Below are positions 28,793-60,675 of a stretch of DNA of 64,000 bases, piece after piece. A program made the translations under genes and the position numbers. Every line of letters begins with the position of its first letter. Positions within the stretch are counted from its first letter, which is position 1. Under the pieces are notes generated by a model that was not told the DNA's origin, ran no database searches, and was given only the letters and a program-made list of their open reading frames with translations. Origin of the DNA: Geosiphon pyriformis uo1 (taxonomy: Eukaryota; Fungi; Glomeromycota); contig JAAOMT010000245.1 in the NCBI GenBank assembly GCA_016748015.1, positions 19,941 to 83,940 on the forward strand, written 5' to 3'.

Positions 28793-30958
<2,166 letters not shown>

Positions 30959-37500: not shown

Positions 37501-37699
37501 GGTTTTCAGCTGGTGCCCGTGACATCCATTGCTATTTCCAATTCATATTAGGGTTGACTTTTCAAATAATTTTTTGGCTGGTGTGGTCTGTATTTTTTCA
37601 GATTTAGATTTGTCTTTGGGTGGCTTGGTAACCAGTGCTTTTTACCTTCAGTCTGGTACTCCTTTGTCTCTTGTGCTTGGTGATAAGATGTTTTTCAAA
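34582..37699 (+). pseudogene. LINE C ORF2 (endonuclease + RT), truncated
   Basis: MTDLIWKIAMCNVRG, ETKL, GSDFN, IDYMF, QDMHKAYDSV, GLDQGE, GAFVDNMIW. Confidence 0.9.
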
Positions 37700-39862
37700 A
37701 TTAAAAATGCTAAAATTGACAAGTGGTTGTAGTTTAGAGAGTGCTTATTGGACAAATTCTTGAAAAAAGTGGCTAAATTTAATAGTACAAGAAATTGTAA
37801 TAATTTAGATATTATGTAAAAGATTCTAAAGAAGATAATAGTAAGCTTTACTAATAAAATATTTTATAAACTTTGGTTTAGTAATTTAAAATATTCAAAA
37901 AATAGGCAATTATCAAAATTTTTCAAACTGGAATTATTAATGACCAAAATTATAAAAGATTTAGATTTGAATTAAGATCCAAAAACTGATTGTTTTATTA
38001 ATACCTGGATTAACATTAATGAAAAAATCTCTAAATTACACATTATAAATGATAATAGTATAAATTTAAAAGAAATTCTACTTTATCTGTTAAGAATCAA
38101 GAAAAAATATCATAAATTCAAATATCATGAATTCAAGATTGTCCAAGATGATCTTATCAAAAAAGTAATTGATAAGTATATGAAAAATTTTGTTTTAATA
38201 AGAGAAAAATGATCAAAAGCATTTTGGATTGACTATTTCAAAAAGTAGTATTTAATTATTTATAATTAATAATAAGTTAATTTTAGAGCCATATAAAGTT
38301 AGGTTCATGATTAACACAATTATAGAGGGATGAATGAGAAAATGTGTAGTGTCTGGTGCTCTGTTTAATAAATAATCTAATCAATATGCTCTTCTAAATC
38401 ATGTCAATAATGATGCTTTCTTAAAAATAATGTGCAATATTAAGTTTAATGAATTTTTACAAGTTGTTAAGGATTTACTTGATAGAAAAGCCATTGATTT
38501 TTCTGATATCCCTAATGAGCTTTAAAAATATAGTAATGTGCAAGTTTTAAGTGATTTATTGGATATTTTTAATGTGTGTTTAGTGTTAGACACAGTTTTT
38601 ATACAATAAAAAAGTGCTTAGATTTTTATAATATCAAAGTCTTATGAATAAAAGAGAATTTTTATAAATATTAGACCAATAGTCTTGATTAAAACAGTCT
38701 GAAAAATTCTATCTAAGATTTTTTCCAATAAGATTTCTTTAGTCTATAACAATTTTAACATTTTGTATGATAATAATTTTTTAGTTTAAAAGACATATTT
38801 ACTTAAATTCCAATTTTTGCTGTTGGTTTCATTATTAAAGATATATTAAAAAAGAACAGAAAACTGTGGCTAATTTTTTAGAACATACATAAAACATATA
38901 ATTTTGTTGGGTAATGTTTTTTAAAAAACAGTTTGACCAAAATCAAAATATATCCCTGTTTTATTAAATTTTTTAAAAGTATACACAATAATTAAATTAA
39001 CCAAGTGATAACAGATTTTAAGTTTATAAAAGAATATACTATTTATGATAGATTAAATTAAAGTAAGATATTCTTGTTTTTGTTGTGAAAAATCTTTTAT
39101 AACTCTTTGTTTTATAAAGTTAAAAAACATAACAGTTTATATAAATACAAGTTAGATTTAAAATTTTTTACACAAATTGACAAGTGAGATTTTAGGAGTA
39201 ACATAACATCTTTTCTGAAAACAGGAGCTTTCATAAATAACACAATTTGGATTAAGAATAACATAGCTACTACTTAGTACATTCTGAACATAGCTAATAA
39301 ATTTTTTTGAATAAATAATATTTTAATTAATACAAATAAAATAGTTGCTATACCAATTAATCAAAAAATAAAAATCTTTAATTTAGTAATAAATAAATCA
39401 AACATTTTAATAGCTAAAAAAAATAAATTACATAGATACTTAGACATTTTTTTGTTTATAGACAGTCTTTTTAACCAAGTTTTATTAAGATTTATTCAAA
39501 CATTAAGTTTTTCACAAACTTGGTATTAAGAAAAACTGTATCTAATAAGCAGTTTTTATATCTGATGTCTGTTGTTTTACAGTCAATAATTAACTACAGA
39601 TTGCAATTTAGTTATGTTTTAGCAAATATATGTGAAAAATAAAACAGAATATTAAGAAAAAAACTTAAATTCAAGACCAATTTACTTAAAAATTTTTCTA
39701 ATAAAGTCATTGTTTATTCTGAATTATATAGTTAAAAATTATTTAAACAATTACAAACCAAAAATTTTTTGGTAAATTTGGTAGTTTTTGCCAATTTAAA
39801 AAACATTTTTGACAAATTGTTTGAACATAGAGCTATGAATTTACAGACCATCAATTAGATGC
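37694..39862 (+). mobile_element. LINE D, left part (EN-RT linker and RT), heavily AT-mutated
   Basis: Degenerate homology to ORF2 (RPIVLIKTV.KILSKI, GAFINNTIW, LVLRKTVSNKQFLYL); interrupted at 39863 by an LTR. Confidence 0.85.
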
Positions 39863-40741
39863 TGTTATAAGTGATTATTTGAGATTTTAAATCAAATAAC
39901 AAACTTATAACTTGGTGCTTAATTAATATATTAATGATGTATATAATTTAATGGTTTTATCAGTCTGAAGGTTTTGGTTATAGTTCTTTGTATAATGGAC
40001 AGAAATAGTAGTTGTTTCTTGAAATTGCAATTTTTGCCCAATTTTTTTTTCAGCTTGGCAGCCAAATTTATTCTGACAATTATGCCTTTCTGATAAGCTA
40101 ATTGTTAATATATATAATTCTACCCTTATTTCTGGGTTTTTTACCAAACTATTCTTGATGTTAATAATTCAGTGCTTTAATCCTTAATCAATTAGTATAC
40201 AACAATAAAATCAAAGAAAAGAAAAGAAATAAAAAAAATAAAATAAAAAAAATAAAAGAAATAAGCCAAGGCAATTTGCAAATTAGTATCCCATCAATAG
40301 TTATAATCAAAAGCTATTGTTCTAGTGTAGTTAAGTATCAATTACTATTAACATAGAGTGTTGATAGTGGAAAGTGAATTTAAGATAGTAAATAATTATT
40401 TATTGATTAGAAAAGTTGCTTAGATTAAATCTAAACTGAGAGGTCTGTCTTTTCTACTTTTAATGCTACCATTATATATACATAATTAAAATTCCTTAAT
40501 TTCTCAATTTTTTATACCAGAAATTCTGGAATTCCTAAAATCCTGCAATTCTTTTGAGAGGAATCCTGGAATTCTAGAATTCTGCAATTTTTCACTCAAG
40601 AATCTTGAAATTTCTGGAATCCTACGATTCTTTTAAGAGAAATCCTGAAATTTCTGGAATCCTGGAATTCCACATTTACTATGTCTACCTCTGATTGGCT
40701 AATTTATATGCTAATATACTTTTTATATTCTATAAGTAACA
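39863..40741 (-). repeat. G2 3' LTR
   Basis: TGTTAT...GTAACA; preceded in element sense by a decayed PPT; near-identical to 59910-60675. Confidence 0.9.
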
Positions 40742-40754
40742 TTATTCTCTTATT

Positions 40755-41316
40755 TTAATATTGAGCTCTATCAAAATTTCCTAAATCTCCTAACTCTACT
40801 TCTCCATTTTTGAGTATTTCTTGAATTTCTTTTTTGAGAATTACTTGTGTTATCTTGTTCAAATTGGGCATTGGTTATTTTTTCCATTTGGTTAACAGTA
40901 ACAGTATTCATTTCTGTGTTGAGTAAAATTTCTGGTCAATCTTAAAATCTAGTATGTATCCAATAAATGGCTCTTGTTTGTGTGGTCAAATTGTTCTTTC
41001 CAATAAATTGTTTTAGTTGTTGCAGTATTGCTGTATCAAATAATTATTTTGTTTTATCCATATATAAATTTTGAATATTCAAGTGTTGTCTCAAATAAAA
41101 GTAACAAAAGTTTCTTGGAAATTGTTGTATCTACTAATTCTAAATTTCTATAGTTAACTCTTAGTATTGAGTAATTTTTGGTTGTGCTTCTATTGCCAAT
41201 TTCACTTTTGTGATTATTTTGTCAACAGTGTTTTCTGTTTTTCTCTGTACTTTATCCTGTGGTCTTTTTCTGGTGGTTGTGTATCTGATAGTTTTTTGAT
41301 TGATTGTGATTTTCAT
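40755..41316 (-). pseudogene. G2 ORF3 (unknown protein between integrase and PPT)
   Basis: Collinear with the G3 copy 49267-49839; most stops are complemented by the other copy; 11-bp deletion near the 3' end. Confidence 0.7.
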
Positions 41317-41442
41317 TTCTTGTTGTTGAATTAATTGGAAGAGTTATTGTGCTAATGAGTGAATATTGTCAGTAATTTCTATTTTTTTGATGTCTTTCAT
41401 TACATCTACTCTGTCTTTATATACTCTTTTTATTGTTCAATT

Positions 41443-44400
41443 TTATGTGTTTGTTTCAATGATTATGATTGGTTCCAGATCTCATGAAATCTCATCTGGT
41501 TAGACTAGTATTTGCTGTACTCTCAGTTGTGGAATATTATTCATAGATAATGATACTGTATGATAATATGGTTTTAGTCAATCACTATGTGCTGCTTTGG
41601 CCAAGATTTTGTTGTTTCATCTTAATTTATAAGCTTCATTTCCTAGAATTTCTTCTATGTAAAATGGTCTATCCCATTTGGAGTCGAATTTTCTACTTCA
41701 TTGTTTTTCTGCTTTGGTACAATGTAAAAGTATTTTGTCTCTAATCTTGAATTCAACTGGTTTATCTGGTAATTAGTTATTATGTTATTCTTTTTGTTTT
41801 TCTTGTAACTTTTGAATATTATTAGCTGCTCTTTGCCTTTTGTTTTCTAGTGTTTCTATTATGTCATATGTTCTTTTCAACAATGTTTCTTGAAAATTAT
41901 CTTCTGTTATTGGTTCAGTTGGATATGTGTTGACTTCTATCTCTACTGGTAATATTGCTGTTCTACTATACACTAATTCAAATGGTGTCACTTGTATAGT
42001 ATCTTGCTTCATTGTCTGATAAGCAAATAATACTAATAGTAAACAAATCCCATTTATCCTGGTTTTTTTGGCTGATCTTGGCAATTGCTTTACACAATGT
42101 TCTATTGAATCTTTCAATTAAGCCATTTGTTTATGGATGATATAATAATGATAATGGTCTTTTAATTCCAAATCTTTGACTTAATTCTGACAATGTTCTA
42201 TTTACAAAGTGAGTTCCTTGATCTAATAGTAATTTTTTTGAACATTCATGTTGACAAATCAAATCTTGATGGACAAATTTGGCAATGAATTCTGCATCTG
42301 TTCTTTGAATGGCTTTTGCTTCTGGCCATTTAGTGAGATAATCCATGACTACTGCAATATATTTGTTGTCTCTGCTAGTGATTGTTAATGGTTTGACTAA
42401 GTCAATTCCAATGTAATCAAATAGTTGTTCTATTCTGATTGGTTTTAATGGTTCAGTCAGTCTTGTTCCTTTTCTTCTTTGACAAGTATTACAATTCTAA
42501 ACATATTGAATGATATCTGAATATATTGATGGCCAATAGTATCTATTTTTGGTTCTTTTTATGGTTGCTTCTTTATGAAAATGTTCTGCTGTTGGGTCTG
42601 AGTGCATATTGAATAGTATTGTCTCTTTTTCTGGTTCTGTAACTACTCTGATTGGTTGATCTGAATTTCTTTTGTTTTTCTGATAAAATATATTTTGATG
42701 GTTAATAAAGTATTTTGATTGTTGTTTTATGTTGTTTCGTTTCTTTTGAGATAATTTTTTTTTAAACTGTTAAGTATTTATATAATGTTAAAATTGTTGA
42801 TATTTTTGTGTGTTCATTTTTTGTTATATATTTATGTTTTCAATTTGTTTGGATTTGTTATATTTTTGGGTTAAAATGCTCAGATTTGTTTCATTTATAA
42901 CAAATTATCAGCATTTTTATTTTTTTTTCCCTTTTTATAGTGTACTGTAAAAGTATATAGTAAAAGTACTATTTTTCATCTTGCATGTCAATCATCTCCA
43001 AATTCTTGCTTCTGGATTAAAGTCAATCCTTTGTGATCAGTGTGCATCTTAAATTTTTGGCTTAAGTATTTTTTTCATTTCATAACTGCCCAATAGATTG
43101 CTAAGTGTTCTAATATTGGTGTTTTATAATTTTTTTCAGCTGGAGTCAAACCTCAGCTGGTATATGTAACTGGATGTTTTCTTCCATTTGGTTCTCTCTG
43201 AGATAGTACTGCTCCTAATATTTAACCTAACACATATGTGGTGATAATGAATGGCTTACTATGATCTGAATATATCAACACTGGAGCTTAAATAAGCTTT
43301 TTTCTTAAAATGTCAAAAGCTTCTTGCTGAATTTCTGTCCATTTGTATTTTATATTCTTGGTTTGGAAATGGTTAAGTGGCTGAGCTATTTTAGAAAAGT
43401 CTTTAATGAAGTGATGATAATAGCCTGTGAATCCCAAGAATGATTTTAATTTGGTTAAGTTGGTTGGTACCAGAAATTTTTTTACTATCTTTATTTCTCT
43501 GAATTCATTTTGATTCTGTTTTTGCTCATTACATGTTCTAAGAATTTCAGTTCTGTTTTGCTAAAAAAACACTTAGTAGTATTTAACTTTAGTTCTGCTC
43601 ATCGTAGCCTTTCAAATACTTGCTGTAGATAATAGATGTAATTATTGAACATTCTTAAGAATACGTTGGTATTGTCCAAATACATGACTACTAATTTCCA
43701 TAGCAGTCTAGTATATACTATTTCCATTAGCCATTGAAATGTGGCTGGTGCTTTCATTAAGCTGAATGGCATGACTTCAAATTCAAAATTTCCCTCTTTT
43801 GTGGTAAATGCCATTTTCTCTTTGTTGGCTGAATTCATGGCTACTTGCTAGTAGTCACTATCTAAATTCAATGTTGAGAACCATTTCTTTTCTTTGAAAG
43901 CATCAAACAATTTCTGAATTCATGGAGTTGGGTAACTGTCTCCACAAATAACTCTATTGAGTTTTCTATAATCCACACAAAAGTGAATCTTTCCATTCTT
44001 TTTCTAAACTAGTACCACTGGTAATGACCATGGGCTTATTGATGGCTGAATTAGTCTGTTGTCAAGCATCCGATTGATTTCTTGACAAATGATTTCATGG
44101 CTGACTGGTAGTATCCAATATGCTCTTTGTTTAATTGGCATTGCATCTCCAGTCTTAATCTAATGCTGGATAATATCAGTTTGGCCAAATTTGTTTTTAC
44201 TTGCAAAGATGTCATTGAAGTTTTTAAGTAACATCTTGAGTTGCATATATTGAAATGAGTCTAAGTTTCCCATGTTTATTTGGTTCAATTGTGCTGATTG
44301 AAACAAGTAGCATTCATTTCATCCATATATTGTCTGTGATGTAATATTCACATATCCACACAGTTGTGGAAAATCCAAAATGGTGCTTGGTGGTTGCTCT

Positions 44401-47400
44401 TCAAGTTCCATGCTTAAGTATTCAATGATAATTCTTTTGAGTATTGTAATGACATCTCCTGTTGTATTGTGGATGAGAATTTTGATATGGTTATGATTCT
44501 TGGCTGATATGTAGAAATTAATGAGTCCAATTTCTCTTGATTCACAAATTGTTGCTTCTGTCTCAAAGATCTGGGCTTGGTTCTTCATTTTCCTTTCTAT
44601 TACTAACATGTACTAATCATATGGTGGAATGAAAATTGATTGATGGGTGGAGATAATTTCTTCCTTGTTAACAATTTCTTCCTCTGCCATATTGATTGGT
44701 ACATTGTTACCCAAGTAGAAAAACCAATCCAAAGTTATAAAGAAACATGACCAAAATGTGACATAACACAGAATAATACGCAATAATGTTGGATAACGCG
44801 TTATAATGTTGGATAACATGTTATAATGCAGGATAACACAGAATAGCATGCAATAACATAGGATAACACAGAATAACATGTAATAATGTCAGATAACGTG
44901 TTATAATATAGGATAACTAGCGATAACGTAGAAAAACAAAGCAATAACAGAAACAACAAAGCAATAGCTAGCGATAGCGAGACAATTGAAAGCAATCCTA
45001 TAAAACCAAAAGAATGTATAAAAGCAAGTAGTTGTAGAAGTGAGAAAAGACAGAAAAGAAAAAATAGATATGAACCTCTAAACCAGAAATTAAAATATTC
45101 ATATTCCTTCATTTTTTATTATCTTCCCTATTTCATCTCCTAAAATAAACCAATTATTAAAAGAAATCAGAATCACGAATTCATGTTCTCGAACTTCATG
45201 GAATTTACGTGAATTAACCCTTGTCTCGTACTTCCATTCTAGAACAGATGCTCTTAGCATAACTATCTCGAACCTATTAACGATTTGGACCAATCGCTCT
45301 TGATCATGGCAATTGACAATACTAATTTATCTTTTTTCTTTTTTCTTTTCTTTTCTTTTTCTTTTTTTTTCTTTTTCTGTCTTATTTTTTTGTGGAGCGG
45401 CAACATAGTAAAATTGACTGTCTGGGAATAAACTTCGTGATAGCCTGGTAAAAGAGGGAAGCTTCCCCTAAGTTTTGGATATTAACATTATCTTGTTAGC
45501 TTACCAGAAGGGCAAAAAGACAACGCCAGACCCTAACAACTGTACTCGTTAGCTCGGAGAAGAAAGCTCACATTTATGAAAAACGTTGCAATTGACAAAA
45601 AACAAACTCTCTGCCTTATAACCAAAGAACTCAATGGGTAAAATTCACATCCAGGAATAGACCTTTAGAAACTGATAATCAAGACTAAGCCAACAGAATT
45701 ACACAGAAGACGCATCATCAATAATTGAGAGCACCAAATGTTACCATTTCCCATACCCACCAAGTTTACCTGTAACAACGTTTATTCTATTTGTTGATTC
45801 AAATTTACTTATTTCTCTTGCTGTGATTTCTAATTCTTCTCTATTTCCCACTGAAATTAACTGAGCTACTTTAACCAAAGGTAAGAATATTGCCTGTATT
45901 ATCTTTTTATTTGGCTCTATGATATAAGTCTTTTCTGAGTTATTTTGTAGCATTGCAATAATATTTCCTATGTATTCTACATCAATTATCCCTCCTCTAA
46001 TATTGATTTCTTTTTTTGTTAAACTACTTTTAGAGACTAGTTGAATCATTGTTGTTGCTGGGATCTCTAATTCTATTTTTAAATCAATACATGTTTATGA
46101 ATGTGGTTCCAATTTTATGGCTTCTTTTCTGAAATATCTCAGATCAAACTCTGCATCTGTATCATGCACGCATTTTGACATGATATTTTCATCATTATCA
46201 CTGAATTATTTAAGTTCTTGCTTTTTGGTGAGATTGGGGAGTGCAATGTATTGTTCAAAGTTTGAATTTGAGTTTGAGTTATTGTCATTTTGGTTGTTAT
46301 ATTAGATAGAGCTAAAACCAGTGTTTTTGTTGTCATTGTTGTTGGAGTTTGAATTGGGATCGAAAATTGATTTCAATTCTGATGCACAGCTGCTGATTGG
46401 TTTTTTTTCTTTGGAGATTGTATAGATCATGTATGGTAGTAGATTGTAAATAAGGTCACAATTATCACAATATTCAAAATTACTGAGAATTAAACAGTGT
46501 TAGTATAGTCTGGTATTTAATTCTTTTAGCCATTGTTTTTGCTCTTCCCTAGTCAGTGCCAATTCCTGGTAATGTTTATAGAATTGCTCTGGGTCTATTG
46601 GCTTTAAGACAATATCTGAGTTTGGGCCCTAGTTAAGTTTTATTGGTTTGAATGAATTGTTTTTGATCACTCTGATCTCTTTGGATATCACTCCTTCGAT
46701 TTTTGTGAGTGCCATTCACCAAATTTTGTTGTTATTGTGTGGGCAACCATCCAGACATTTTACAGTTCTTCTTCAGGTGGCTTTTATTGGTGTTCCTTTT
46801 TTAACCTAGTTACTTATTAGAATCATGTATTGACACAATTTGTCACATGTTTCTCTTCACTCAAGAATGTTATTCCACATTTCTTTATCTAAAAAAGTTT
46901 TTTCACAAGCCAAGCATGGTTTATTATCCCATTTTTCAACTCATTTTGGTCTTCCAAAGTGTTCTAGGATGCATGGACAACAATAAAACTTAGTTGCCAT
47001 TTGGTATTCCTCATTATCACCACAGCATGCATCTATTGACAACAATTTTTTGCTGCAATTAATACATATGAGCTTTGGTCAGCAATAAGTGGATCATTGT
47101 GGTATAGTATAAGTGTAGGAGTTATAAGTGGTGATGTTGGTGAGTGTTGTTTCTTCTTCCTTCCCTTTTTGTTTTTCCTTATTGCTTTTTTCTCCCTCCC
47201 AAGTTATTGGTTTTTCTTGGTCATTATTATTTACTCAGGCTTGGTTAGAATTCCAGATAAGTTCTTCTTTTTGCTTTCATTTTCCAGTGTTATTCCAAGA
47301 GAGTATCAGTAATAGCTTATTGTGGTCTTGATTGGTCCATAAAACTTGATAAACTTCTCAGATAGGTTTTTTTTCTTTTTTTTTGAACTCGATGAGAGTT

Positions 47401-48446
47401 GCTGTTAGTGTGTTGATAAGTTTAAAGTGGCTGGTACACATGTGTGTTGACTATTTTGGTTAATTTGAAGCTTCTGCATGGTCCAGTCAAGCATCACATT
47501 TGTTTTGGACAGCCAATTATTACCAACAAATGCTTAGTATTGGGTGGCTTTTATGACTAATATCATGATGGGTACAATAATGCCATTGACTTTAAAAGAA
47601 AAGTTATCAATTTTGTCTATAGGAGTCTTAGTAGCTCCAATAGCAGTAATGATTTTGGCACTGGCAATGCAATCAACTCAGTGATCTAATTGGTCTATAA
47701 GTTGTTTTGTTATGATACTGCCAGCTGACCTACTATTAAGGATAAGCTTGATAGATTGCTCATCGACTTTGATGTCAGTATATATGGCAGTAATTAGTTT
47801 GGTGTCAAGAGCAGCTCCACTAAATAATAGGATGGGTATAGTGTCCTTAAGTTTGAAAGAAAAAATGGTTGCTAAGAATTCATTGTTGGTAACAGTTGCT
47901 GGTAGTATGTTGCTAATAAGTAATTGTTTTTGGTTGACTTTTGAGTTATTGGATAAGTTGTCTTTTGGGATAACCAAAAGACTTAAATAGTGTTGGAAAT
48001 TCGGGTTTTGAACATGCCCAGTTTCCAAATTCTGAGAACATAATCCTGTTGGTTGGTGAAAGGAGCTGGGGATCAGTTAATAGACAACTATCACTGATTT
48101 CCAGTTCTGAATGACTCTTGATCTGGGATTTCCTGATGTCATATGAGCTGGGTTTGGTGGTAGTGTTTGAAATTGCTGTGATTGATAAATTACTGGTGGC
48201 TGTGGTTGATATATGACTTGTGGCTACTGTTAATAGACTGGAGTTTGATATACAGGTGGTTAATACATTGGTTGTTGCATCAATGGCAGGTAAGTCAATT
48301 GATATGGGGCTGGATTTGATTAAAAACTTGGAGTTTAAAACTGGTAATTGGGGTTTTGATATTAATTTCCTGATCATTGGTTATTTAAATATTGGCAGCA
48401 GTTGATTTGCAAATGTCTTTGTCTACCATAATAGTGGCAAGCATGC
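41443..48446 (-). pseudogene. G2 gag C-terminus and pol (zinc knuckle, PR, Cys-rich domain, dUTPase, RT, RH, IN), interrupted by a solo LTR
   Basis: LILNSRSAGSII; IRGGIIDVEYIG; YLDN; integrase HHCC, MDYLTKWPEA, DQGTHF and a GPF-type C-terminus. Confidence 0.9.
44705..45777 (+). repeat. Solo LTR (~1073 bp) of a further related family, antisense within G2 pol just after the dUTPase
   Basis: TGTTAC...GTAACA termini; 4-bp TSD ACAT/ACGT; host frame STNRINV|PINMAEEE rejoins; U5 blocks homologous to 6690-6960; ~10-bp ATAACACAGG-type tandem array at 44760-44930. Confidence 0.88.
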
Positions 48447-49253
48447 TGTTACAAGTGATTATTTGGGATCTTAAAACAAATAACAAACCCATAACTTGGT
48501 GCTCAATTGCTAATTCATGTATTAATATCTAAAGGTTTTGGTGTCTGAAGGTTTTTGGTTGAGTCCTTTGTATAATAGACAAAGATTCGATAATTGTTTT
48601 ATCCATTACTTCTTAAAACCACAGTTTCGTCAATTTTTTTCTTGGCATGATGGCCAGCAATTTTCTGGTAAGCTATTTTCAAATCTATGAGTGTTTATCC
48701 TTATTCCTAGGTCTTTTACCAGTGCTATATCCTGATGTCAGTACCTCTGTACATTTTTCTTTTAATTAATTAGTACACAACAATAAAATCAAAAAAGGAA
48801 AATAAAGAAAAAAAAGAAAGAAATAAAATAAATAAAGAAATAAGCCAATGCAATTGCAAGTTAGTATCCCATCAATAGTCATAATTAAGAGCTATTGTTC
48901 CAGTGTGATCAAGTATTAATTACTATTACCATGAAGTATTAATAACAAAGAGTAGATTTAAGATAGTGAATAATTATTTATTAATTAGGAAGGTTACTTA
49001 GATTAAATCTAAACTAAGAGATCTGTTTTTTCTACCTTTAATGCTACTGCTATATATACATAATTGAGATTTTTCAATTCCTTTGAGAAGAATCCTAAAA
49101 TTCTGCAATCCTGTGATTCCTCATATGAGAATTCTAAAATTCCTGAAATTCTGCAATTTCTCTGAGAAAAATTCTGAAATTCCATATTTACTATGCCTAC
49201 TTCTGATTGGCTAATCTATATGCTAATATATTTCTTATATTCTATGAGTAACA
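48447..49253 (-). repeat. G3 3' LTR
   Basis: TGTTAC...GTAACA; PPT adjacent at 49254-49268. Confidence 0.92.
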
Positions 49254-49266
49254 TTATTCCCTCCTT

Positions 49267-49935
49267 TTAATATTGAGCTCTATTGAGATCTCCTAAATCT
49301 CTTAACTCTAATTCTCCATTTTTGAATATTTCTTGACTTTTTTTTTCAAGAATTATTTGTGTTATCTTGTTCTGTAATTCTTCAAATTGGGCATTGGTTA
49401 TTTTTCCCATTTGGTTAACAGTAATGGTGTTCATTTCTGTATTGAGTAGAATTTCTGGTCTGTCTTAAAATCTTGTATGTAGCCAATAAATGGCTCTTGC
49501 TTGTGTGGTCAAATTGTTTTTCCTCACAAATTGTTCTAATTGTTGCAGTATTGTTGTGTTAAATAATTGTTTTGTCTTATCTGTGTATAACTTCTGAATA
49601 TTCAAGTGTTATCTCAAGTAAAAGTAACAAAAGTTTTTTGGAAATTGTTGTATCCACCAATTCCATATTTCTATAGTCAACTCTTGATATTGGGTGACTT
49701 TTGATTGTGTTTTTATCACCAATTTCACTTTTGTGATTATTTTGTTGACAGTGTTTTCTGTTTTTCTCTATACTTTATCTTATAGTCTTTTTCTGGTATT
49801 TGTGTATCTGATGGTTTGTTAATTGATTGTGATTTCCATTTCTTGTTATTGGATTAATTGAAAGAGTTGTTGTGCTAGTGAATGAATGTTGTCAGTAATT
49901 TCTATTTTTCTGATGTTTTTTGTTGCATCTACCAT
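49267..49935 (-). pseudogene. G3 ORF3 (unknown, ~190-220 aa, env position)
   Basis: One frame from ATG 49935/49839 to TAA 49267 abutting the PPT; internal stops are TAA/TAG, mostly at positions that are CAA/CAG in G2. Confidence 0.75.
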
Positions 49936-49966
49936 GTTTTTATATACTTTTTTTTATTGTTCAATT

Positions 49967-52900
49967 TTACATGTTTGGTTTAATGATTATAATTGGTTCT
50001 CGATCTTGTGGAATCTTATCTGGTTGGACTAATATCTGTTGTACTCCCAGTTATGAAATATTATTAGTGGATAATAATACTATATGGTAATATGGTTTCA
50101 GTTGATCACTATGTGCTGCTTTGGCCAAAATTTTGTTGTCCCATCTTAATTTATAAGCTCTATTTCTTAGAATTTCTTCTATGTGAAATGGTTTATTCTA
50201 TTTGGGGTTAAATTTCCACTTCATTGTTTTTCTGTTTTGGTACAATATAAAAGTACTTTGTTTCCAATCTTGAATTCAACTGGTTTATCTAATAGTTGGT
50301 TATTATGTCGTTTTTTTTGTTTTTTTTGTAACTTTTGAATGTTATCAACTGTTCTTTGCCATTTGTTTTCTAGTGTCTCCATTAAGTTATATGTTTTTCT
50401 TAGCAATGTTTTCTGAAAATTGTTTTTTGTTATTAGTTCTGTTGGATATGTATTGACTTTTATCTCAACTGGTAATGTTGTTGTTCTACTGTATACTAAT
50501 TCAAATGGTGTTGCTTGTGTAGTATCTTGCTTTATTGTCCAATAAACAAATAATACTAATGATCTAAACAAATTTCATTTGTCTTGATTTTTTTGACTAA
50601 TTTTGGCAATTGCTTCATACAATGTTCTATTGAATCTTTTAACTAAGCTATTGGTTTGTGGATGATATGGTGATAATAATGGTCTTTTGATTTCAAATCT
50701 TTGACTTAATTCTGTTAATGTTCTGTTCACAAAGTGGGTTCCTTGATCTGATAGTAATTTTTTTGGACATCCGTGTTGACAGATCAAATCTTGATAAACA
50801 AATTTGGCAATGAATTCTACATCTGCTCTTTAAATAGCTTTTGCTTCTGGCCATTTAGTAAGATAATTTATGGCTATTGCAATATATCTGTTGTCTCTGT
50901 TGGTAATTGTTAATGGTCTGACTAAGTCAATTCCAATGTGATCAAATAGTTGTTCTACTTTGATTGGTCTTAATGGTTTACCTGGTCTTGCTTCTTCTTT
51001 TCTTTGACAAGCATTACAATTTTGAACATATTGAATAATATCTGAATATATTGATGGTCAATAGTATTTTTTTCTGGTTCTTTCTATGGTTGCTTCTTTA
51101 TGAAAATGTCCTGCTGTTGGATCAGAGTGTATGTTGAATAATATTGTCTCTTTTTTTGATTCTGTGATTACTCTGATTGGTTAATCTGGATTTTTTCTGT
51201 TCTTCCAATATAGTATATTTTGATAAGTAATAAAATATTTGAATTGTTGTTTGATGTTGTTTTGTTTCTTTTGAGATAATTTCTTCTTGAACTGTTGGGT
51301 ATTTATATAATGCTGGAGTTGTTGATATTTTTGTGTATTTATCTTTTGTTATATTTTTGTTTTCAATTGTTTGGATTTTGTTATATTTTTGAATTAAAAT
51401 GCTCAGATTTGTTTCATTTACAACAGACTGTCAATATTTCTATTTTCTTTTTCCTTTTTATAGTACACTATAAAAGTATATGGTGAGAGTGCTATTTTCT
51501 ATCTTGCATGTCAATCATCTCCAAATTTTTGCTTCTGGATTAAAGTCAATCCTCTGTGATCAGTATGCACCTCAAATTTTTGGCTTAAGTATTCTATTTC
51601 ATGGCTGCCCAATAAATTGCTAAGTGTTCTAGTGCTAGTGTTTTATAGTTTTTTTCAGCTGGTATTAAGCTTTAACTGGTGTATACTACTGGATGTTTTC
51701 TTTCATCTGGTCATTTTTGTAATAATACTGCTCCTAATGCTTGGCCAGATGCATCAGTAGTGATGATAAATGGTTTGCTATGATTTGGATAGATTAATAC
51801 TGGGGTCTAAATAAGTTTTGTTTTCAGTATATTAAAAGCTTTTTGCTGAGTTTCAGTCCATTTGTATTTGGTGTTTTTTATCTGAAGTTGATATAGTGGT
51901 TGAGCTATTTTGGAAAAGTTTTTGATAAAGTGACAGTAGTATCTAGCTAATCCCAAGAATGCTCTTAATTCTGTGAGATTATTTGATACTAGAAAGTTCT
52001 TAATAATCTTAATCTTATCTGGATCTGTTTTGATTCCATTTTTACTCACAACATATCCCAAAAATTTGAGTTCAGTTTTCCCAAAAAAGCATTTGGTGGC
52101 ATTTAGCTTCAATTCAGCTCTTTTTAATCTTTTGAATACTTGTTGAAAATGGTGTAGATGATCATTGAATATCTTAGAGAATATATTAGTGTTGTCTAAA
52201 TATACAACTATTGATTTTCATAACAATCCAGTATAGACAATTTCTATAAGCCATTGGAATATTGTTGGTATATTCATCAAGCCAAATAGCATTACTTCAA
52301 ACTCAAAATTTTCTTCTCGAGTTGTAAAAGCCATTTTCTCTTTATCTTCTGGTTTCATGGCTACCTGCCAGTAACCACTGTCTAAGTTTAAAGTTGAAAA
52401 TTATTTCTTTCCTCCAAAGGCATCAAACAGTTCTTGGATCTTTGGAGTTGGGTTGCTGTCTTTCTTGGTTACTCTATTAAGTTTCTGGTAATCCACACAA
52501 AAACGGATTTTCTCATTTTTCTTATGGACTAATACTACTGGTAATGACCATGGGCTCATAGATGGCTGAATTAGTCCGTTGTCAAGCATCTGATTGATTT
52601 CTTAATGAATGATCTTATGGCTGGCTGGTAATACTCAATATGCTCTTTGTTTGATTGGCATTGTATCTCCAGTCTTAATTTGGTACTGAATTATGTCCAT
52701 TCTGCCAAACTCATTTTCACTTGCAAAAATGTTGGTAAAGTTGTTGAGTAACATTTTGAGTTCTATATGCTGGAGTGGGTCTAAGTTTCTCAGATTTATC
52801 TGTTTTAACTGTTTTGATTGAAGCAAATAACATTTATTTTGTTTATAAATTGTTTGTGATGTTATATCAACATATCTACACAGTTATAGAAAGTCTGAAA

Positions 52901-55900
52901 TGGAGTTTGGTGGTTGGTTCTCAATTTCAGTAATTAAGTATCTAATAATGGTTTTTTCTGGTATTTCCATGATATTTTCTATATTGTTGTAAATAAGAAT
53001 TTTGATGTAATGGTGGAATGAAAATTGATTGACAGATGGAGGTAATTTTTCATTTGTCAACAACTTCTTTCTCTGTCATATTAATTAGTATATCTATTCT
53101 ACTTGTGAATCCAAATTCACTTATTCTTCTTGCTGTGATCCCTAATTCTTCCCTATTTCCTACTGAAACTAACTGAGCTACTTTAACCAAAGGTAAAAAT
53201 ATTGTCTGTGCAATCTTTTCATTTGGCTCTATGATATAGACTTTTTCTGAGTCATTTTGTAGCATTGCAATAATATTTCTTACATATCCTGCATTAATTA
53301 TTCCTCCTCTGATGTTGATTCCTTTTTTTGCTAAACTACTCCTAGATGCTAGTTGAATCATGGTGGTCACTGAAATTTCCAGTGCTATTTTAAAATCAAT
53401 GCAAGTGAATGTGGTTCCAATTTGATGACATTTTTTCCTGAATACCTCAGATCAAACCTTGCATTGGTATCATGTGCATGTTCTGGCATGATATCTTCAT
53501 CATTATTACTGAACCATTTTAGTTCTTGCTTCTTAGTAAGATCAGGGAGTGCAATAAATGTTTTAGAATTTAAATCAGAGTCCGAATCATTGTTATTTTC
53601 ATTGTCATATTGAACAGAGCTGGAACTGGTGTTTTCATTGTCATCATTGTCGGAGTTTGAATTGGGATCAAAAATTGATTCTGATTCTAATATGCAGCTG
53701 CTGATTGGTTTTTCCTCTTTTGGGATCATGTAGATCATGTGTGGTGGTGAATTATAAATAAGGTCACACTCATTACAATATTGAAAGTCACATGGAATCA
53801 AACAGTAGTCACATAATCAAGTGTTTATTTCTTCCAAACATTGTTTTTGTTCTTCTCTGGTGGGTGCTAGGTTCTGATAGTGTTCATGAAATTCTTTTGG
53901 GTCCGTTTCAATGTTTAGGAAAGCATTTGAATTGGAAATTAACACAACATTAATTGGTTCAAATGGGTTATTTTTGATCTCTAAGATTTCTTTGGGTGAA
54001 GTGTCTTTGACTTTGGCATTTGCCATTTGCCAGATCTCATTCTCATCATGTGGGTAACCATCCAAGTGAGAGATTACTTGGTGCCATGTGACAGTAATAG
54101 GTGTGCTACAACTAATTCAGTTGCTTATGAAGATTATATACTGACATAAAGTATTACATATTTCTCCTTGTCCAGAAATGTTATTCCATATTCTTTCATC
54201 CAGTAGTTGTTCACCACAAGTAAGACATGGTTTGTTGTTTCACTTGCCTTGTTTTTTAGGATAACCATAGCATTTAGGGTGGCATGATTTGTAGCAATAA
54301 TAAGTTTATGTCTAGTAATTTTCATCTGGCACTACTCAGGCTCCCATGGAGGACAGTTTTTTTTTGCAGTCTTTGCACCTGAGGAAAATATAAGGTGGTT
54401 CTGGCCTGGTATTCATGGAGTATGAACTTCTCCAACTGCTAGTTTCCATGTTGTCATTGGTCTTTTCAGATATGTCTTTTTCCTTTTTTTTCTCTTTCCC
54501 TTTGTCTTTTTCTTCCCAGTCTAGAATTGGTGGTAGCTCATTGTGGTCTTCATTAGCCCATGAAACTTAATAAGCTTCCCAGGTAAGTTTTTTTCTTTCT
54601 TTCTTGAATTCAATAAGTGGTGCTGCCATGGTGGTGTTTTTGAAGTGATCACATGTGGCTGGTACATGTGTGTGTTGACTGTTCTGGCTCAGTTAGAGCT
54701 TCTGCATGTTTTAGTTGAATGTTATGTTGATTTTGGACAACTAGTTATTGCCAACAAGTGCTTGATACTGAGTGGCTTTCATGATTAATATCTTGATTGG
54801 TACAATAATGCCATTAACTTCTATGGGGAGATTATCAATTTTGCCAATTGGAGTTTTGGTCACTCTATTGGCCATTATGATTTTGGTGCTGGCAGTGTAA
54901 TCAACTCAGCAATCTAATTGGTTTATGAATTGTTATGTGATAATGCTGTCTGTTGACTCATTATCTAATATGAATTTGATGGAATGGCCATCAACTTTAG
55001 CATTAGTGTACATAGTAGTGATTGGTTTTTCTTTGAGCACAGCTCCACTGAACAAAAATGTGGATGACAGTTCTTCGAGTTTAAATGAAAAGATTGCTGC
55101 CAATGATTTATTGTTGGTGACAGTGGCTGGAGATATGTTGCTGGTGAGTGTTTGTGTTTGGTTGGTTTCTATGTTGTTGGATGTGGCATTTTCTGGGATA
55201 ACTAGGAGACTTAAATAGTTCTGAGAACTCAGGTTTTGGTTATACCCAGTTCTTGAATTCCACTGGCATGATCCTGATGGCTAGTTGGATGAATTAGGAA
55301 TCAGTTGGTAAACAACCATCACTAATCTCCAGTTTTGAATGACTTTTGATCTAGAATTTCCTGATGTTATTTAAACTGAGTTTGTTGTGAGAATTTGAGG
55401 TTAATATATTATTTGTGGCTGTAGTTGATAGATAGATTGTGGCTGCAGCTGATAAATTACAGGTGCTGGAGGCTGATAGATTGATGGTAAGTAGATTTGC
55501 TGTGGCATTAGTGGGTAATGGGGTTGATAGTGGTTCTGATTTGAGTGGTAATTTGAAGTTTGAAATCAGCAATTGGGGTTTTGATATTTATTTCCTGATT
55601 GTTAATTATTAATTCTAATATAGCAGTTAATTCTAATGTGCCCTTGTTTACCACAATTGTGGCAAATATGCATCTCTTGCTACCATAATGATTGTGTTGT
55701 CATAAAATGTGACTGATGTTGTTGCTGCTCAATGGTTCTGAGATTGTTGCAATGTTGTGGTGGTTAATATATGGTTTGATTATTGTTAGCTAAGTAACTC
55801 TTTAGTTTCTAATTAATTGAATTACTGAATTGTTTCAATTTAGAATCCAATTCAGATGATTTGTTCATTACTAAATTGATAGTTTGGGCATAGTTTGCTT

Positions 55901-57312
55901 CAAGTTTAGCAGATTCAAAATCTCTTGCATTGGTAACTGCGTCTTGGAGCATTTGTGAGTGCATTGGATGTATGTATTGGAAGATGCTACTGTATAATTC
56001 ACGGATGAACTGGTTCAGAATCTGTGGTGCTGTAAAGTAATCTGCATTGATTGCTTATATTTGGTGTAAATTTTTATGAAAACATCCTAGGTAAGTAGTA
56101 ACTGCTTCAGTTTCTCTTTGCTTAATGGTGGTAAAAGTATTTGCTAAGTGGTTAATACTATTATGGTTGCTAAAATATCTCAAAAATTCTGTTTTAAATA
56201 CATTAAAAGTGATAGGTTTGTTGATTAGACTTTGATATCATAAATCAGCAATATCTTGCAAAAAGTATAAAATGGCCTGTAGGGCTCTGGCATTGTCTTA
56301 ATTGTTAGCCATGATTGCTTTGGTGATGTCATTGAGCCACACTTGGGTGTTATCTTTTTTGCCCATAAATTTTTCTAATTTGACAATAGAAGTGTAGGCC
56401 ATTTGTTGTTGTGGTTGCTGTTGCAGCTGCTGCTAGAATTGTTGTTGGGATAGCAGTTGTGGCTGTTGTTGCTGCTCAACAATTGGTGGAATGGGTGGTA
56501 GATTGATCTCAATTATTGGAGATAAGTTTTTCTTAATTATGTCAGAGTTTAAATTGTTTAGATTTTCTGGAGTTTGAATATTTGGGGTTTGATTTTCTGG
56601 ATTTTCTGAGATTGGGTTTTGATAATTAAATTCTCAATCTTCATTTTCTTTTTCCTCAGATTCCGTTACTTTCCAAGAACTCACAGTTCCAAAATCTGGT
56701 AAGGATAACAGCAATTGAAGTTTTGATGGTATTGGTAATCACAAATTAAATTCTTCAAAATATTTGCCATAAGTTCTTAATAATTTTGCTTTCTTTTGTT
56801 TACTTTGGAATGAAAATCATCTAAATATTGATGTTGTGTTTGATGTAGATGCACCTGTTGATGTAATATTAATGGCACTTCCAGGTATATAGTAGTATGA
56901 TGAATTAGTTGGTGGTTTAAACTCTTGTTTTCTTCCAAGTGGGTGGTTGTACCTTTTAAGATGTTACTGCTGGTGTTTGTAGTTTTCTCTTGCCTTTGTT
57001 TGCATAGGTAATTGGGTATCTTTGCTGAATATGATATTCAATTTTCTTGTTGATCTCCATAAGGATTGCTGTAAAATTGTGGTTTGCTAGTAAGCTAGTG
57101 TTTTAAATTAATTTGTTGTAAAAGTTTCTTTTTGCTGAATCAGTTTCTACTGGTACTCTTAACAAGTATGAAATTTTTTCATTGACATAGAAGTTGAAAG
57201 CTGATTCTGTTGATAGGTGATTACTGGTTAATTCCAAGTGTTGACAGTAGTATTGGAATAAGAATTTGGTGAATTCTAAATGGTTTGTTCTTATTTTTTC
57301 TGGTTTTGCCAC
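49967..57312 (-). pseudogene. G3 gag-pol (N-terminal domain, Gag, PR, Cys-rich domain, dUTPase, RT, RH, IN)
   Basis: MAYTSIVKLEKF Gag start at 56402; CHNCGKQGHIRINC; ASRSSLAKKG..GGIINAGY; LDSGYWQ; TDASG; integrase ending EPIIIIKPNM*. Confidence 0.92.
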
Positions 57313-57374
57313 TTTTGGATGATTGTTGTTGGTGCTGGTTCTCTTTAAAATTATACCTCACAAGGAGCACCAAA

Positions 57375-58196
57375 TGTTACAGATGATTATTTGGGGTCTT
57401 GAAACAAATAACAAACCCATAACTTGGTGCTTAATTGCTGATTTGTGTATTAATATCTAAAAATTTTGGTGTCTGAAGGTTTTTGGTTGAGTTTTTTGTA
57501 TAATGAACAGAGATTTGATAATTGTTTTATCCGTCACTTCCCGAAACTGCAGTTTTATTATTTTTTTTCTTGGCATGGTGGCTGGCAATCTTTTGATAAG
57601 CTATCCTTAAATCTATGAGTGTTTACCCTTATTTCTGGGTTTTTTACCAGTGCTATATTCTGATGTCAGTATCTTTGTGCATTCTTCTTTTAATCAATTA
57701 GTACACAACAATAAAATCAAAAAAAAAATAAAGAAAAAAAAGAAAAAAAGAAAATAAATAAAAAAATAGGCCAATGCAATTACAAGTTAGTATTCCATTA
57801 ATAGCTGTGATTAAGAGCTATTGTTCTAGTGTGGTCAAGTATTAATTACTATTAACATGAAATATTGATAGCAGAAAGTGGATTTAAGATAGTGAATAAT
57901 TATTTATTAATTGGGAAGATTGCTTAGATTAAATTTAAACTGAGAGATCTGTCTTTTTTACCTCTAATACTACTGCTATATATACATAATTGAAATTCCT
58001 CAATTCCTCGATTCCTGCAATTCCTTTAAGAAGAATTCTGGAATTCTGGAATTCTGCGATTCCTTATATGAGAATCCTGAAATTTCTAGAATTCTGCAAT
58101 TTCTCTAAGAGGAATTCTGGAATTCCATATTTACTATGCTTACTTTTGATTGGCTAATCTATATGCTAATATATTTTTTATATTCTATGAGTAACA
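57375..58196 (-). repeat. G3 5' LTR
   Basis: TGTTAC...GTAACA; PBS adjacent; in element sense CCAAT box (AGCCAATC) near the 5' end and a TATATA box. Confidence 0.92.
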
Positions 58197-59846
58197 GTGC
58201 ATTTTCTGTTGCCACTGTTGATTGGTTGATAATGCTAAATGTGGTTGATTTTAGAAACAATTGGAGTTTCCTTGATTGCTATGTCATTGTGGTGATTGAT
58301 AGATTGTCTGATTGTTGTTAGCTAAGTATCTTTTTAATTTTTGATTGATTGAATCACTAAATTGTTTCAATTTGGAATTTAATTCAGATGATCTATTCAT
58401 TACTAGATTTATGGTTTGGGCATGATTAGCTTCAAGTTTGGCAAATTCGAAATCCTGTGCATTAATAATTGCATCTTAGAGAGTTTGTAAGTACATTAGA
58501 CATATGTATTGGAAAATATTACTGTACAGTCCACAGATGAACTGGTTCAAAATTTGTGATACTGTAAAGTAATTCATGTCAATTGCTTGTATTTGGTGCA
58601 AGTTTCTATAAAAACATCTTAAGTAAGTAATAACTGCTTTAGTTTTTCTTTTCTTAATAGTAGTGAAGAAATTTGCTAACTGGTTGATGCTGTTATTATT
58701 ACTAAAATATCTCAAGAACTCAAGTTTGAATGTATTGAAATCTTGAGGTTTGTTGACCAGACTTTGATACTATGAGTTGGTGGTATCCTGGAGGAAATAT
58801 GAGATGGCTTGCATAACTTTGGCATTATTTCATCCATTAGTCATAATGGCTTTTTCTATGTCATTGAGTTATACTTGGATGTCATTTTTTTTGTTCGTAA
58901 ATTTTTTGAGTTTTACAATTGGTGAATATGTCATTTGCACAATTGATTATTGCTGTTATACTGATAGTGGTTAAAGTTGTTATTAAAGTGGTTGTTAAAT
59001 TAGTTCAATGGGTGGCTAATCAATGATGATTTCTGGAAGTAAGTTCAGTTAATTAATTAAGTTGAGATTTTGATTATTCTGATTTTGCTGATTAATATTA
59101 TCAGAGTTTGGGTTGTTCAGATTTTCAATTTCTGGATTTTCTAAAATTGGATTTTAATAATTAAATTTCTAATTCTCTTTTTTCTCTTCTTTTAATGTTA
59201 TTATTTCTCACAGATCAGCTGTTCTAAAATCTGGTTAAGATGACAGTAATCAAAATGCTAATGGTATTGGTGATCATAATTTAAATTCTTTGAAATAATT
59301 ATCATAAGTTCCTAATAACTCTGCTTTCTTTTGTTTACTTTAAAATAGGAGTTATCCAAATGTTGATGTCATGTTTGATATAGACATGTCTGCTGATGAA
59401 ATATTGATTGTACTTTTGAGTGTGTAGTAATATAATGAATATGTTGGAGATTCAATTTTTTGTTTCTTCCAGTTTGGTACTTGAATTCCTTTTGGTGTTA
59501 CTGCTGGTGTTTGTAACTTTCCTTTACTTTTGTCTATGTAGGTAATAGAAAATTGTTGTTGAGTGTATTTTTCAATGGTTTGATTGATTTTCCTAATGAT
59601 TGGCATGAAACTATGATTTTGTAGTAAGCTAGTGTGTTGAATTAATTCTGTGTAGAAATTTTTCCTTGCTGATTTAATGTTAATAGGTACTCCTAGAAAA
59701 TCTTTGATTTTTTTATTGATGTAAAAATTGAAGACTAATTCTGCTAGATAATGATTGTTGCTTAATCTTAATGGTTGACTGTACTGTTGAAATAAGGATT
59801 TGGTGAATCCTAAATGATTTGTTTTGATTATTTTTGTTTCTGCCAC
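58197..59846 (-). pseudogene. G2 gag 5' part (N-terminal domain and capsid)
   Basis: ORFs 59352..59846 and 58476..58715 are homologous to G3 57103..57312 and its Gag. Confidence 0.88.
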
Positions 59847-59909
59847 TTTTGGAATGGTTGTTGCTAGTGCTGGTTTTCTGTAGGATTATACCTTACAGAG
59901 AGCACCAAA

Positions 59910-60675
59910 TGTTACAGGTAATTATTTAGGGTCTCAAATCAAATAACAAACTCGTAACTTAGTGCTTAATTAATATATTAATGATATATGTAATTTGATG
60001 GTTTTATCAGTCTGAAGGTTTTGGTTGTAGTTTTTTGTATAATAGACAGAGATTCAGTAGAAATAGTAGTTGTTTCCTGAAATTGCAATTCTTGCCCAAT
60101 TTCTTTCTCAGCTTGGCAGCCAGATTTATTCTGGCAGTTATGCCCTTCTGATAAGCTAATTGTTAATATATATAATTCTACTCTTATTTCTGGGTTTTTT
60201 ATCAGACTATCTTTAATGTCAATAATTCAGTGCTTTAATTCTCAATCAATTAGTATACAACAATAAAATCAAAGAAAAAAAAAAATAAGGAAAAAAAAAT
60301 AAAAAAAATAAGTCAAGGCAATTCGCAAGTTAGTATTCTGTCAATAGCTATGATTAAAAGCTATTGTTCCAGTGTGGTTAAGTATCAATTACTATCAACA
60401 TAAAGTGTTAATAGTAAAAAGTGAATTTGAGATAATAAATAATTATTTATTGATTAAAAAAATTGCTTAGATTAAATCTAAACTGAGAAGTCTGTCTTTT
60501 TTACTTCTAATACTACTGCTATATATACATAATTGAGATTTCTTGATTCCTCAATTTTTCACACCAAAAATTTTGGAATTTCTCTAAGAGGAATCCTAAT
60601 ATTTTACATTTACTATGTCTATCTCTGATTGGCTAATTTATATGCTAATATACTTCCTATATTCTATGAGTAACA
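59910..60675 (-). repeat. G2 5' LTR
   Basis: TGTTAC...GTAACA; PBS adjacent; matches 39863-40741. Confidence 0.92.

What the first reader, a model, noticed from the sequence alone, without database searches (positions are those of the whole stretch)
49267..49935. Hidden ORF3 at the env position, recoverable only by comparing two mutated copies
Seen: after the integrase stop, one frame runs to a TAA that overlaps the PPT (G3: 573 nt from the shared ATG at 49839; G2: 40755-41316). Most stops in one copy are CAA/CAG in the other. Reconstructed protein: MEITINQQTIRYTTTRKRPQDKVQRKTENTVDKIITKVKLAIEAQPKVTQYQELTIEIWNWWIQQFPRNFCYFYLRQHLNIQKLYTDKTKQLFDTAILQQLEQFVGKNNLTTQARAIYWLHTRF(Q)DRPEILLNTEMNTITVNQMGKITNAQFEELQNKITQIILEK...RAQY. 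It has no signal peptide or TM segment, looks helical and has a basic RKRP patch. The ORF track misses it. Inference: a soluble accessory protein such as a transactivator, anti-silencing factor or targeting factor, not Env.
Basis: partly seen in the sequence, partly recalled or inferred. Interest (0 to 1): 0.8.

Follow-up and report, generated by a model that had tools for sequence, protein, structure and literature searches.

The report
Unnamed extra gene in fungal retrotransposons
Two dead copies of a fungal jumping gene carry a real, separate extra gene just after the integrase; it belongs to an old, unnamed protein family with no envelope features, predicted to be helical, and likely works in the nucleus to switch on the element, though that job is untested.

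Summary
The ORF is real. In window element G3 one frame runs from ATG 49935 to TAA 49267, which overlaps the PPT. It has six stops; five are CAA/CAG in copy G2. The gene is separate from integrase: the integrase stop is nearly fixed among related copies and the spacer carries indels. G2/G3 differences favour silent sites (omega about 0.44, P=0.001). Homologues occur in five Geosiphon pyriformis subfamilies and in metagenome elements, at 18-42% identity. One is unbroken (230 aa) between integrase and PPT (L001). There is no hydrophobic segment, no Pfam or PDB match and no clear fold match for confident helical models. It is not Env. A PY-NLS-like or basic linker points to the nucleus. My best guess is a Tas-like transactivator (35%); Rev/CERV-like RNA export, integration targeting and anti-silencing remain open. 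Additional ORFs at this position are a known kind; this family is not named in the papers I searched.

The parts
49267..49935 (-). Accessory ORF in element G3: 222 codons from ATG 49935 (212 from the decayed Met position 49905), six in-frame stops, terminal TAA 49269-49267
   Evidence: profile hit 49905-49294, E 1.8e-86
40755..41412 (-). Same ORF in element G2: eight stops and an 11-nt deletion that shifts the last about 35 codons
   Evidence: profile hit 41382-40834, E 6.2e-73
49936..49966 (-). 31-nt spacer between the integrase stop and ATG 49935; poly-A length varies among copies
49967..51342 (-). Integrase of G3, decayed; its own ORF (start codon ATG in G2, ATA in G3, about 60 nt after the RNase H stop); ends at TAA 49969-49967
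   Evidence: SH3-like tail weakly matched in G2
49257..49268 (-). Polypurine tract overlapping the ORF's stop codon, preceded by a GAGCTCAA motif also present in L001
48447..49253 (-). 3' LTR of G3 (87.8% identical to the 5' LTR)
57375..58196 (-). 5' LTR of G3, followed by a TGG-starting PBS-like sequence
51403..57374 (-). Decayed gag, protease, dUTPase, RT and RNase H region of G3
39863..60675 (-). Element G2 (LTRs 39863-40741 and about 59910-60675, 88.9% identical) with G3 nested inside it

Best explanation
This is a separate accessory gene of a fungal Ty3/Gypsy lineage, lying between integrase and the 3' LTR, whose roughly 210-240 aa product is predicted to be a soluble helical protein that likely enters the nucleus and likely acts as a transactivator of its own element, much as Tas does for foamy viruses. 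Shown: a separate ORF; constraint on its frame; conservation across distant elements; the same position in window G2/G3, L001 and L002; no membrane features. Predicted: an N-terminal helix plus beta-hairpin, a flexible basic linker and a helical core containing a three-helix unit with a conserved G-K-x-N turn. Inferred: the linker is an import signal; the helical core binds nucleic acid; the target is a repeated site in the LTR and, where the spacer is long, an internal promoter in front of the gene. The window copies are dead. Odds: real separate gene 0.97; nuclear non-enzymatic regulator of some kind about 0.65; specifically a DNA-binding transactivator about 0.35.
For: Separate gene: integrase stop 49969 shows no other letter at 5% or more among 631 laid contigs, while decayed stop 49848 reads as CAA in 98% of depth. 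L001 has integrase, stop, 316-nt spacer, then an unbroken 230-aa ORF. L002 has the integrase tail, a spacer, another ORF, then the homologue. Constraint: 31 synonymous differences against 19.3 expected, P=0.0012. Homology of window ORF to the metagenome proteins: hhalign 97.2%, 185 columns. Nuclear signal: an R/K/H-x2-5-PY motif in the low-confidence linker of 6 of 7 representatives, each at 3-8% by shuffling (consensus from PMC2408616, abstract). The few invariant columns across 7 representatives are P, N, F and L, with no invariant acidic, His or Cys residue, which argues against an enzyme. Weak, recurring helix-turn-helix rows: sigma-F 57 of 57 residues at 2.4 A (Z 3.8), KorB Z 3.8, Spo0J Z 3.7, ParB Z 3.4. 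In L001 TTGCCCT occurs 5 times against 0.35 expected: twice in the spacer before the ORF and three times in the inferred LTR. Foamy Tas acts on both LTR and internal promoter (PMC4929722, PMC8670036; abstracts in search listing).
Against: All structural Z-scores are at background level, and the window-family model gave none of those HTH rows. The ParB-HTH profile comparison is not significant (0.13%). The window's own subfamily lacks the PY motif (0 of 99 models). LTR/upstream motif sharing is seen in L001 only, not in G2 or G3, and G3's spacer is only 31 nt. The two metagenome proteins are acidic overall (pI 5.4 and 5.9). The repeated motif could bind a host factor. The representatives are related, so the PY motif counts are not independent.
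Confidence: 0.35

Rival explanations
1. Rev/CERV-like RNA factor: the protein binds the element's genomic RNA in the nucleus and promotes export or controls splicing. An element whose integrase and third gene are separate ORFs may need several RNAs.
For: NLS-like linker. Split pol in L001, G1, G2 and G3. Precedent: CERV of Cer1 is required for export of unspliced RNA (PMC10309623, abstract and section 6 seen). ESM Atlas lists a closterovirus coat-protein cluster at 0.93, a weak lead.
Against: No known RNA-binding family or fold matched. The Atlas recognition value (2186) was below the level at which scores are reliable.
Confidence: 0.2
2. Integration-targeting cofactor: it bridges integrase to chromatin or CpG sites, doing the job of a chromodomain.
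For: Integrase ends in an SH3-like tail with no chromodomain hit. The 4-bp flanks of G2 and G3 (ATGC/ATGT, ATGC/GTGC) are centred on TG, as decayed CG would be. HTH-like helices (weak).
Against: A CpG preference could lie in integrase itself. Being a separate 3' ORF fits a regulator as well as a particle component.
Confidence: 0.15
3. Anti-silencing factor (VANC-like, name recalled) that binds element DNA and counters cytosine methylation or small-RNA silencing.
For: The copies are heavily deaminated: CpG observed/expected 0.07 in G3; 93 of 98 LTR differences are transitions. mCG and small RNAs target TEs in Rhizophagus (PMC8647823, passages). The family expanded in a genome that is 41.2% LTR sequence (PMC11952901, passage).
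Against: No similarity to a known suppressor in Pfam. Silencing pressure applies to every TE, so it does not single out this function. It overlaps with the transactivator reading.
Confidence: 0.12
4. TAV-like translation factor that promotes reinitiation on a polycistronic RNA (pol, integrase, ORF3).
For: Closely spaced ORFs in the window family: about 60 nt from RNase H stop to integrase start, 31 nt from integrase stop to ORF3 ATG. CaMV TAV precedent (PMC5902531, passages).
Against: No Pfam match to TAV. NLS-like linker. L001 and L002 have spacers of about 300 nt before the next ORF.
Confidence: 0.08
5. Not a separate gene but a C-terminal extension of integrase whose junction stops are decay products.
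For: In G2 integrase and the ORF share one frame, with only TAA and TGA between them. 29 gene models join pol-derived sequence (mostly integrase) to ORF sequence.
Against: The stop is nearly fixed. About 84% of depth has the G3 spacer length, which is out of frame; 10.5% and 5.5% lack 1 or 2 nt. L001 and L002 separate the two by stops and long spacers. The joined models skip varying parts, as spurious introns would.
Confidence: 0.03
6. Env-like fusion or membrane protein.
For: Position only.
Against: No hydrophobic stretch, 1-3 Cys, about 210-240 aa; no Pfam or viral-structure match.
Confidence: 0.01

Closest known systems
Additional ORFs (ORF3, 'add. ORF') of Ty3/Gypsy elements: fungal elements drawn with an ORF of unknown function (PMC2864245, passages) and bdelloid ORF3s (PMC5408684, abstract; PMC6431247, passages)
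   Same: Extra ORF downstream of pol in place of env; dUTPase between protease and RT.
   Different: No match to the named ORF3 types (Env, GDSL lipase, DEDDy nuclease) in Pfam. Here integrase is also a separate ORF. Whether the fungal 'add. ORF' is homologous was not tested: I saw only the figure legend, and the .DOC supplements were not read.
Foamy virus Tas/Bel1 (PMC4929722, PMC8670036, PMC13220597; abstracts in search listing)
   Same: Small non-structural gene next to the 3' LTR; the L001 spacer shares a repeated motif with its LTR, as an internal promoter might.
   Different: No sequence match in Pfam scans; no env gene; promoter activity and DNA binding not shown; window copies show no such motif sharing.
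CERV of C. elegans Cer1 (PMC10309623; abstract, outline, section 6)
   Same: Accessory protein of an LTR retrotransposon that acts in the nucleus.
   Different: CERV is made from a spliced mRNA and exports genomic RNA; neither is shown here, and homology was not tested.
ParB/KorB/sigma-type helix-turn-helix domains
   Same: Three-helix unit; both the structural and the profile alignment place the G-K turn in register.
   Different: Z 3.4-3.8 and hhalign probability 0.13% are both background level; a lead only.
Unnamed Mucoromycota protein clusters in the ESM Atlas (127 and 190 aa; 63 and 98 members)
   Same: Top feature hits, scores 0.95 and 0.94, 168-176 of 256 features shared.
   Different: No alignment is available, so kinship is unproven; they carry no Pfam name.

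Membership tests
Ty3/Gypsy (Metaviridae) LTR retrotransposon (the carrier element) | LTRs bounded by TG...CA, PPT, short target duplication | tested here: met
   (duplications match at 3 of 4 bases in both elements)
Ty3/Gypsy (Metaviridae) LTR retrotransposon (the carrier element) | Order gag, protease, RT, RNase H, integrase | tested here: met
   the L001 integrase's best solved match is Ty3 (E 2e-24), then foamy integrase
Ty3/Gypsy (Metaviridae) LTR retrotransposon (the carrier element) | Integrase as part of one Pol polyprotein | tested here: not met
   stop after RNase H in L001, G1, G2, G3, with a new start shortly after; a variant layout
Env (retroviral or errantiviral envelope) | Signal peptide and transmembrane anchor | tested here: not met
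   best 19-residue hydropathy 0.27-1.29 in 7 of 7 proteins; no dedicated signal-peptide predictor was run
Env (retroviral or errantiviral envelope) | Sequence similarity to fusion glycoproteins | tested here: not met
   no such Pfam family among recurrent hits for 23 and 43 members
Foamy virus Tas/Bel1 | Sequence homology | tested here: not met
   no Pfam family for P0001, P0004 or P0162
Foamy virus Tas/Bel1 | Internal promoter sharing sites with the LTR | tested here: inconclusive
   motif shared in L001, not in G2 or G3
Foamy virus Tas/Bel1 | Binds and activates the LTR | not testable with these tools
   needs a reporter or binding assay
CERV / Rev-like export factor | Made from a spliced RNA; required for export of genomic RNA | not testable with these tools
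   needs RNA data and a live element
CERV / Rev-like export factor | Sequence homology to CERV | not tested
   no CERV sequence was fetched
ParB-type HTH (PF17762) | Profile or fold similarity | tested here: inconclusive
   hhalign 0.13-0.14% against 12 ParB sequences; VIA Z 3.4-3.8
DUF1016/YhcG N-terminal domain | Profile similarity | tested here: not met
   hhalign 0.11-0.14% against 71 sequences, 14 columns only
PY-NLS (Kap104/transportin cargo) | R/H/K-x2-5-PY in a disordered, basic segment | tested here: inconclusive
   present in 6 of 7 representatives within or next to the low-pLDDT linker; absent from the window's subfamily

The most novel reading that the evidence does not exclude
A fungal Gypsy lineage is organised like a complex retrovirus without env. 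It has a stand-alone integrase gene and, behind it, a transactivator gene of a new helical family with its own internal promoter that shares repeated sites with the LTR. This would be a Tas-like feedback circuit evolved independently, and could help explain the large LTR expansion in Geosiphon.
Probability: 0.2. Interest if true: 0.75.

Novelty: new variant of a known kind. Interest (0 to 1): 0.47.

Why it matters
Few accessory proteins of LTR retrotransposons have a known function, and I found none described for Glomeromycotina. This family is old (18-42% identity), keeps its position and has an unbroken natural representative that can be expressed (L001). It gives a direct test of whether fungal retrotransposons regulate their own transcription or RNA export. 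It also shows that well over a hundred 'hypothetical proteins' in the G. pyriformis annotation are fragments of one transposon gene.

Tried and rejected
No whole genome is held for the window, so no genome-wide copy census or multi-copy dN/dS. No RNA holder was listed among sequencing runs, so expression and splicing are unexamined. Pfam: nothing for P0001; only scattered hits for alignment members, the best in 4 of 43. PHROGs: no family shared among 7 proteins. PDB by sequence profile: 0 matches to E 5. Foldseek PDB and viral libraries: 0 at E 0.001 or better. VIA wide: best Z 4.7 and 5.6; second look best Z 4.2. These blanks do not show a new fold. IMG/VR scan: 409 candidate stretches, none related. 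DUF1016 and ParB leads (recalled resemblances) not significant. The extra L002 ORF is not detectably related. Branch-point/acceptor patterns upstream of the ORF gave one loose match per element: uninformative. The sigma-70 scan does not apply to a fungus. The C-terminal GAQY/GAQF was dropped as protein evidence: it is the translation of a DNA motif before the PPT that L001 reads in another frame. The Spuma protease Pfam hit in G1 lies just ahead of RT and I did not treat it as a second protease. As a control, the constraint test on integrase gave omega 0.76 (P=0.11) and 1.26 (P=0.81), so the two-copy test is noisy; RT gave 0.41.

Full report
Setting. The window holds several decayed retroelements and a few host genes. 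Self-comparison and boundary reading show element G3 on the minus strand at 48447-58196, with LTRs 87.8% identical. It is nested in a related element G2 at 39863-60675, with LTRs 88.9% identical. All 94 hits of the first protein search, and all 5 of the search for longer proteins, are named Geosiphon pyriformis hypothetical proteins. The host is therefore likely this fungus or a close relative. Decay is mostly by C-to-T change: CpG observed/expected is 0.07 in G3 and 93 of 98 LTR differences are transitions.

One G3 frame runs from ATG 49935 to TAA 49269-49267, whose AA begins the purine tract. Five of its six internal stops are CAA or CAG in G2 and one is shared. G2 has eight stops and an 11-nt deletion near the end. 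A profile of the family finds only these two copies in the window. Distant relatives also begin near the 49905 position. The RKRP patch is the G2 reading; the subfamily keeps a basic linker but not that motif.

Is it a separate gene? In G2 the integrase and the ORF share a frame with only two stops between, so a fused integrase tail had to be excluded. Among 631 contigs of one DNA run laid on the junction, the T of the integrase stop (49969) shows no other letter at 5% or more. The middle base varies in 6.7% of depth, and the second stop varies only to another stop (21.5%). The poly-A spacer lacks 1 nt in 10.5% and 2 nt in 5.5% of depth. By contrast the decayed stop at 49848 reads as CAA in 98% of depth. 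These depths are summed contig figures from one run, limited to 80% likeness or better. Independent elements agree. Metagenome contig L001 shows RT-RNase H, stop, integrase (one internal TGA), stop, a 316-nt AT-rich spacer and an unbroken 230-aa ORF that runs over the purine tract into the inferred LTR. L002 shows the integrase tail, a spacer, a 128-aa unrelated ORF and then the homologue. 29 gene models join pol-derived sequence (27 the integrase C-terminal half, 1 the integrase core, 1 RNase H) to ORF sequence; they skip different parts, which I read as spurious introns.

Constraint. G2/G3 differences in this frame are 31 synonymous and 28 non-synonymous, against 19.3 synonymous expected when each kind of change is placed at random (P=0.0012, omega about 0.44). 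The shifted frames give 0.79 and 3.0. RT gives 0.41, but two integrase segments give 0.76 and 1.26, so the two-copy test is noisy. The stronger evidence is family conservation. A search of 1.84 billion representatives gave 84 hits and a profile search 54. The 204 collected proteins sort into five Geosiphon subfamilies (139, 44, 13, 4, 1) and three environmental proteins. Representatives are 18-42% identical and form well-separated clades with long branches. The window ORF aligns to the environmental proteins over 185 columns at 97.2% probability. The position behind integrase is shown for subfamilies A and C, L001 and L002, not for B, D, E or P0155.

The protein. No 19-residue window exceeds a hydropathy of 1.29 and there are 1-3 Cys, so it is not Env. 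AlphaFold2 on 43-row alignments gave mean pLDDT 79.4 and 75.2: an N-terminal helix and hairpin, a disordered linker, and a helical core above 85. No family or fold was matched. The wide structural search of the L001 model lists four HTH domains among its 50 rows (sigma-F, KorB, Spo0J, ParB; Z 3.4-3.8). The window-family model does not repeat them, and profile tests against ParB and DUF1016 are at 0.1%, so HTH is only a lead. Invariant columns are P, N, F and L, with no catalytic-type residue. Six of seven representatives carry R/K/H-x2-5-PY in the linker, the PY-NLS core (PMC2408616, abstract); the window's subfamily has a basic patch instead. The ESM Atlas returns unnamed Mucoromycota clusters first (0.94-0.95), hinting at a wider fungal family, with weak recognition. 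The terminal GAQY is explained by a DNA motif before the PPT, which L001 reads in another frame.

Mechanism. Position, size, solubility, an import-like linker and lack of catalytic residues fit a nuclear regulator (inferred, about 0.65). Within that I favour a transactivator (0.35). The reasons are the weak HTH geometry and that L001 repeats TTGCCCT twice in the spacer before the gene and three times in the inferred LTR (5 found, 0.35 expected). That layout recalls the internal promoter and LTR of foamy viruses, both Tas targets (PMC4929722, PMC8670036; abstracts). G2 and G3 show no such sharing, and their ORF starts only 31 nt after the integrase stop, so it would need splicing, reinitiation or a promoter inside integrase. 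Rivals are CERV-like RNA export (PMC10309623), integration targeting, anti-silencing and TAV-like reinitiation (PMC5902531, passages). None was directly tested, and binding to integrase remains open.

Comparison and novelty. Extra ORFs in place of env are documented for Ty3/Gypsy elements (PMC6431247 passages; PMC5408684 abstract), including fungal elements with an ORF of unknown function and dUTPase between protease and RT (PMC2864245, passages; its .DOC supplements were not read and could bear on this). Searches found no description of this family; the library lacks most subscription journals, and I could not check Repbase. Earlier notes of this scan report unnamed third genes and stand-alone integrases in fungal Gypsy elements of other genomes. 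Sequence look-ups found no look-alike of this family among them. They are unchecked AI notes, and they suggest the kind is common. Verdict: a real, uncharacterised accessory gene family, a new variant of a known kind, interest 0.47.

Noticed in passing
window ~51403 (G3), ~42880 (G2), ~60 (G1); L001 772-799: Integrase is split from RT-RNase H by a stop, with its own start 25-60 nt later, in four elements; three small indels separate G2 and G3 in that spacer.
   Followed up: partly
window 48443-48446 / 58197-58200 and 39859-39862 / 60676-60679: The 4-bp flanks of both elements are centred on TG (ATGC/GTGC, ATGC/ATGT), as decayed CpG-centred target duplications would be.
   Followed up: partly
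window 58079-58091, 40607-40619, 40647-40659: TTCnnGAAnnTTC repeats at the U3 end of the LTRs resemble heat-shock elements (label recalled); 4 in the window against 1.06 expected, 2 of 100 shuffles reach 4.
   Followed up: partly
L002:425-811: An intact 128-aa ORF lies between integrase and the ORF3 homologue and is not detectably related to it.
   Followed up: partly
window 49270-49281; L001 3091-3117: A GAGCTCAA motif directly before the PPT is conserved at DNA level between distant elements and read in different frames; possibly a cis signal for plus-strand priming.
   Followed up: partly
window 51600-52170 versus G2: G2 and G3 differ far more in RT (149 differences in 187 codons, 38 transversions) than in integrase or ORF3, suggesting recombination between subfamilies.
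   Followed up: no
window 53400-54400 and 2500-3400: Between protease and dUTPase both G3 and G1 carry a long Cys-rich stretch with several CxxC pairs and an acidic/Asn-rich segment, without a Pfam match.
   Followed up: no
window 7019-11787, 19902-24647, 34771-37626: Three related RT-bearing stretches about 68-70% identical, separate from the LTR elements; possibly LINE-like copies.
   Followed up: no
window 14581-17896 and 29338-30166: Host genes: LIM and RhoGAP domains; TruB and PUA domains of a pseudouridine synthase.
   Followed up: no
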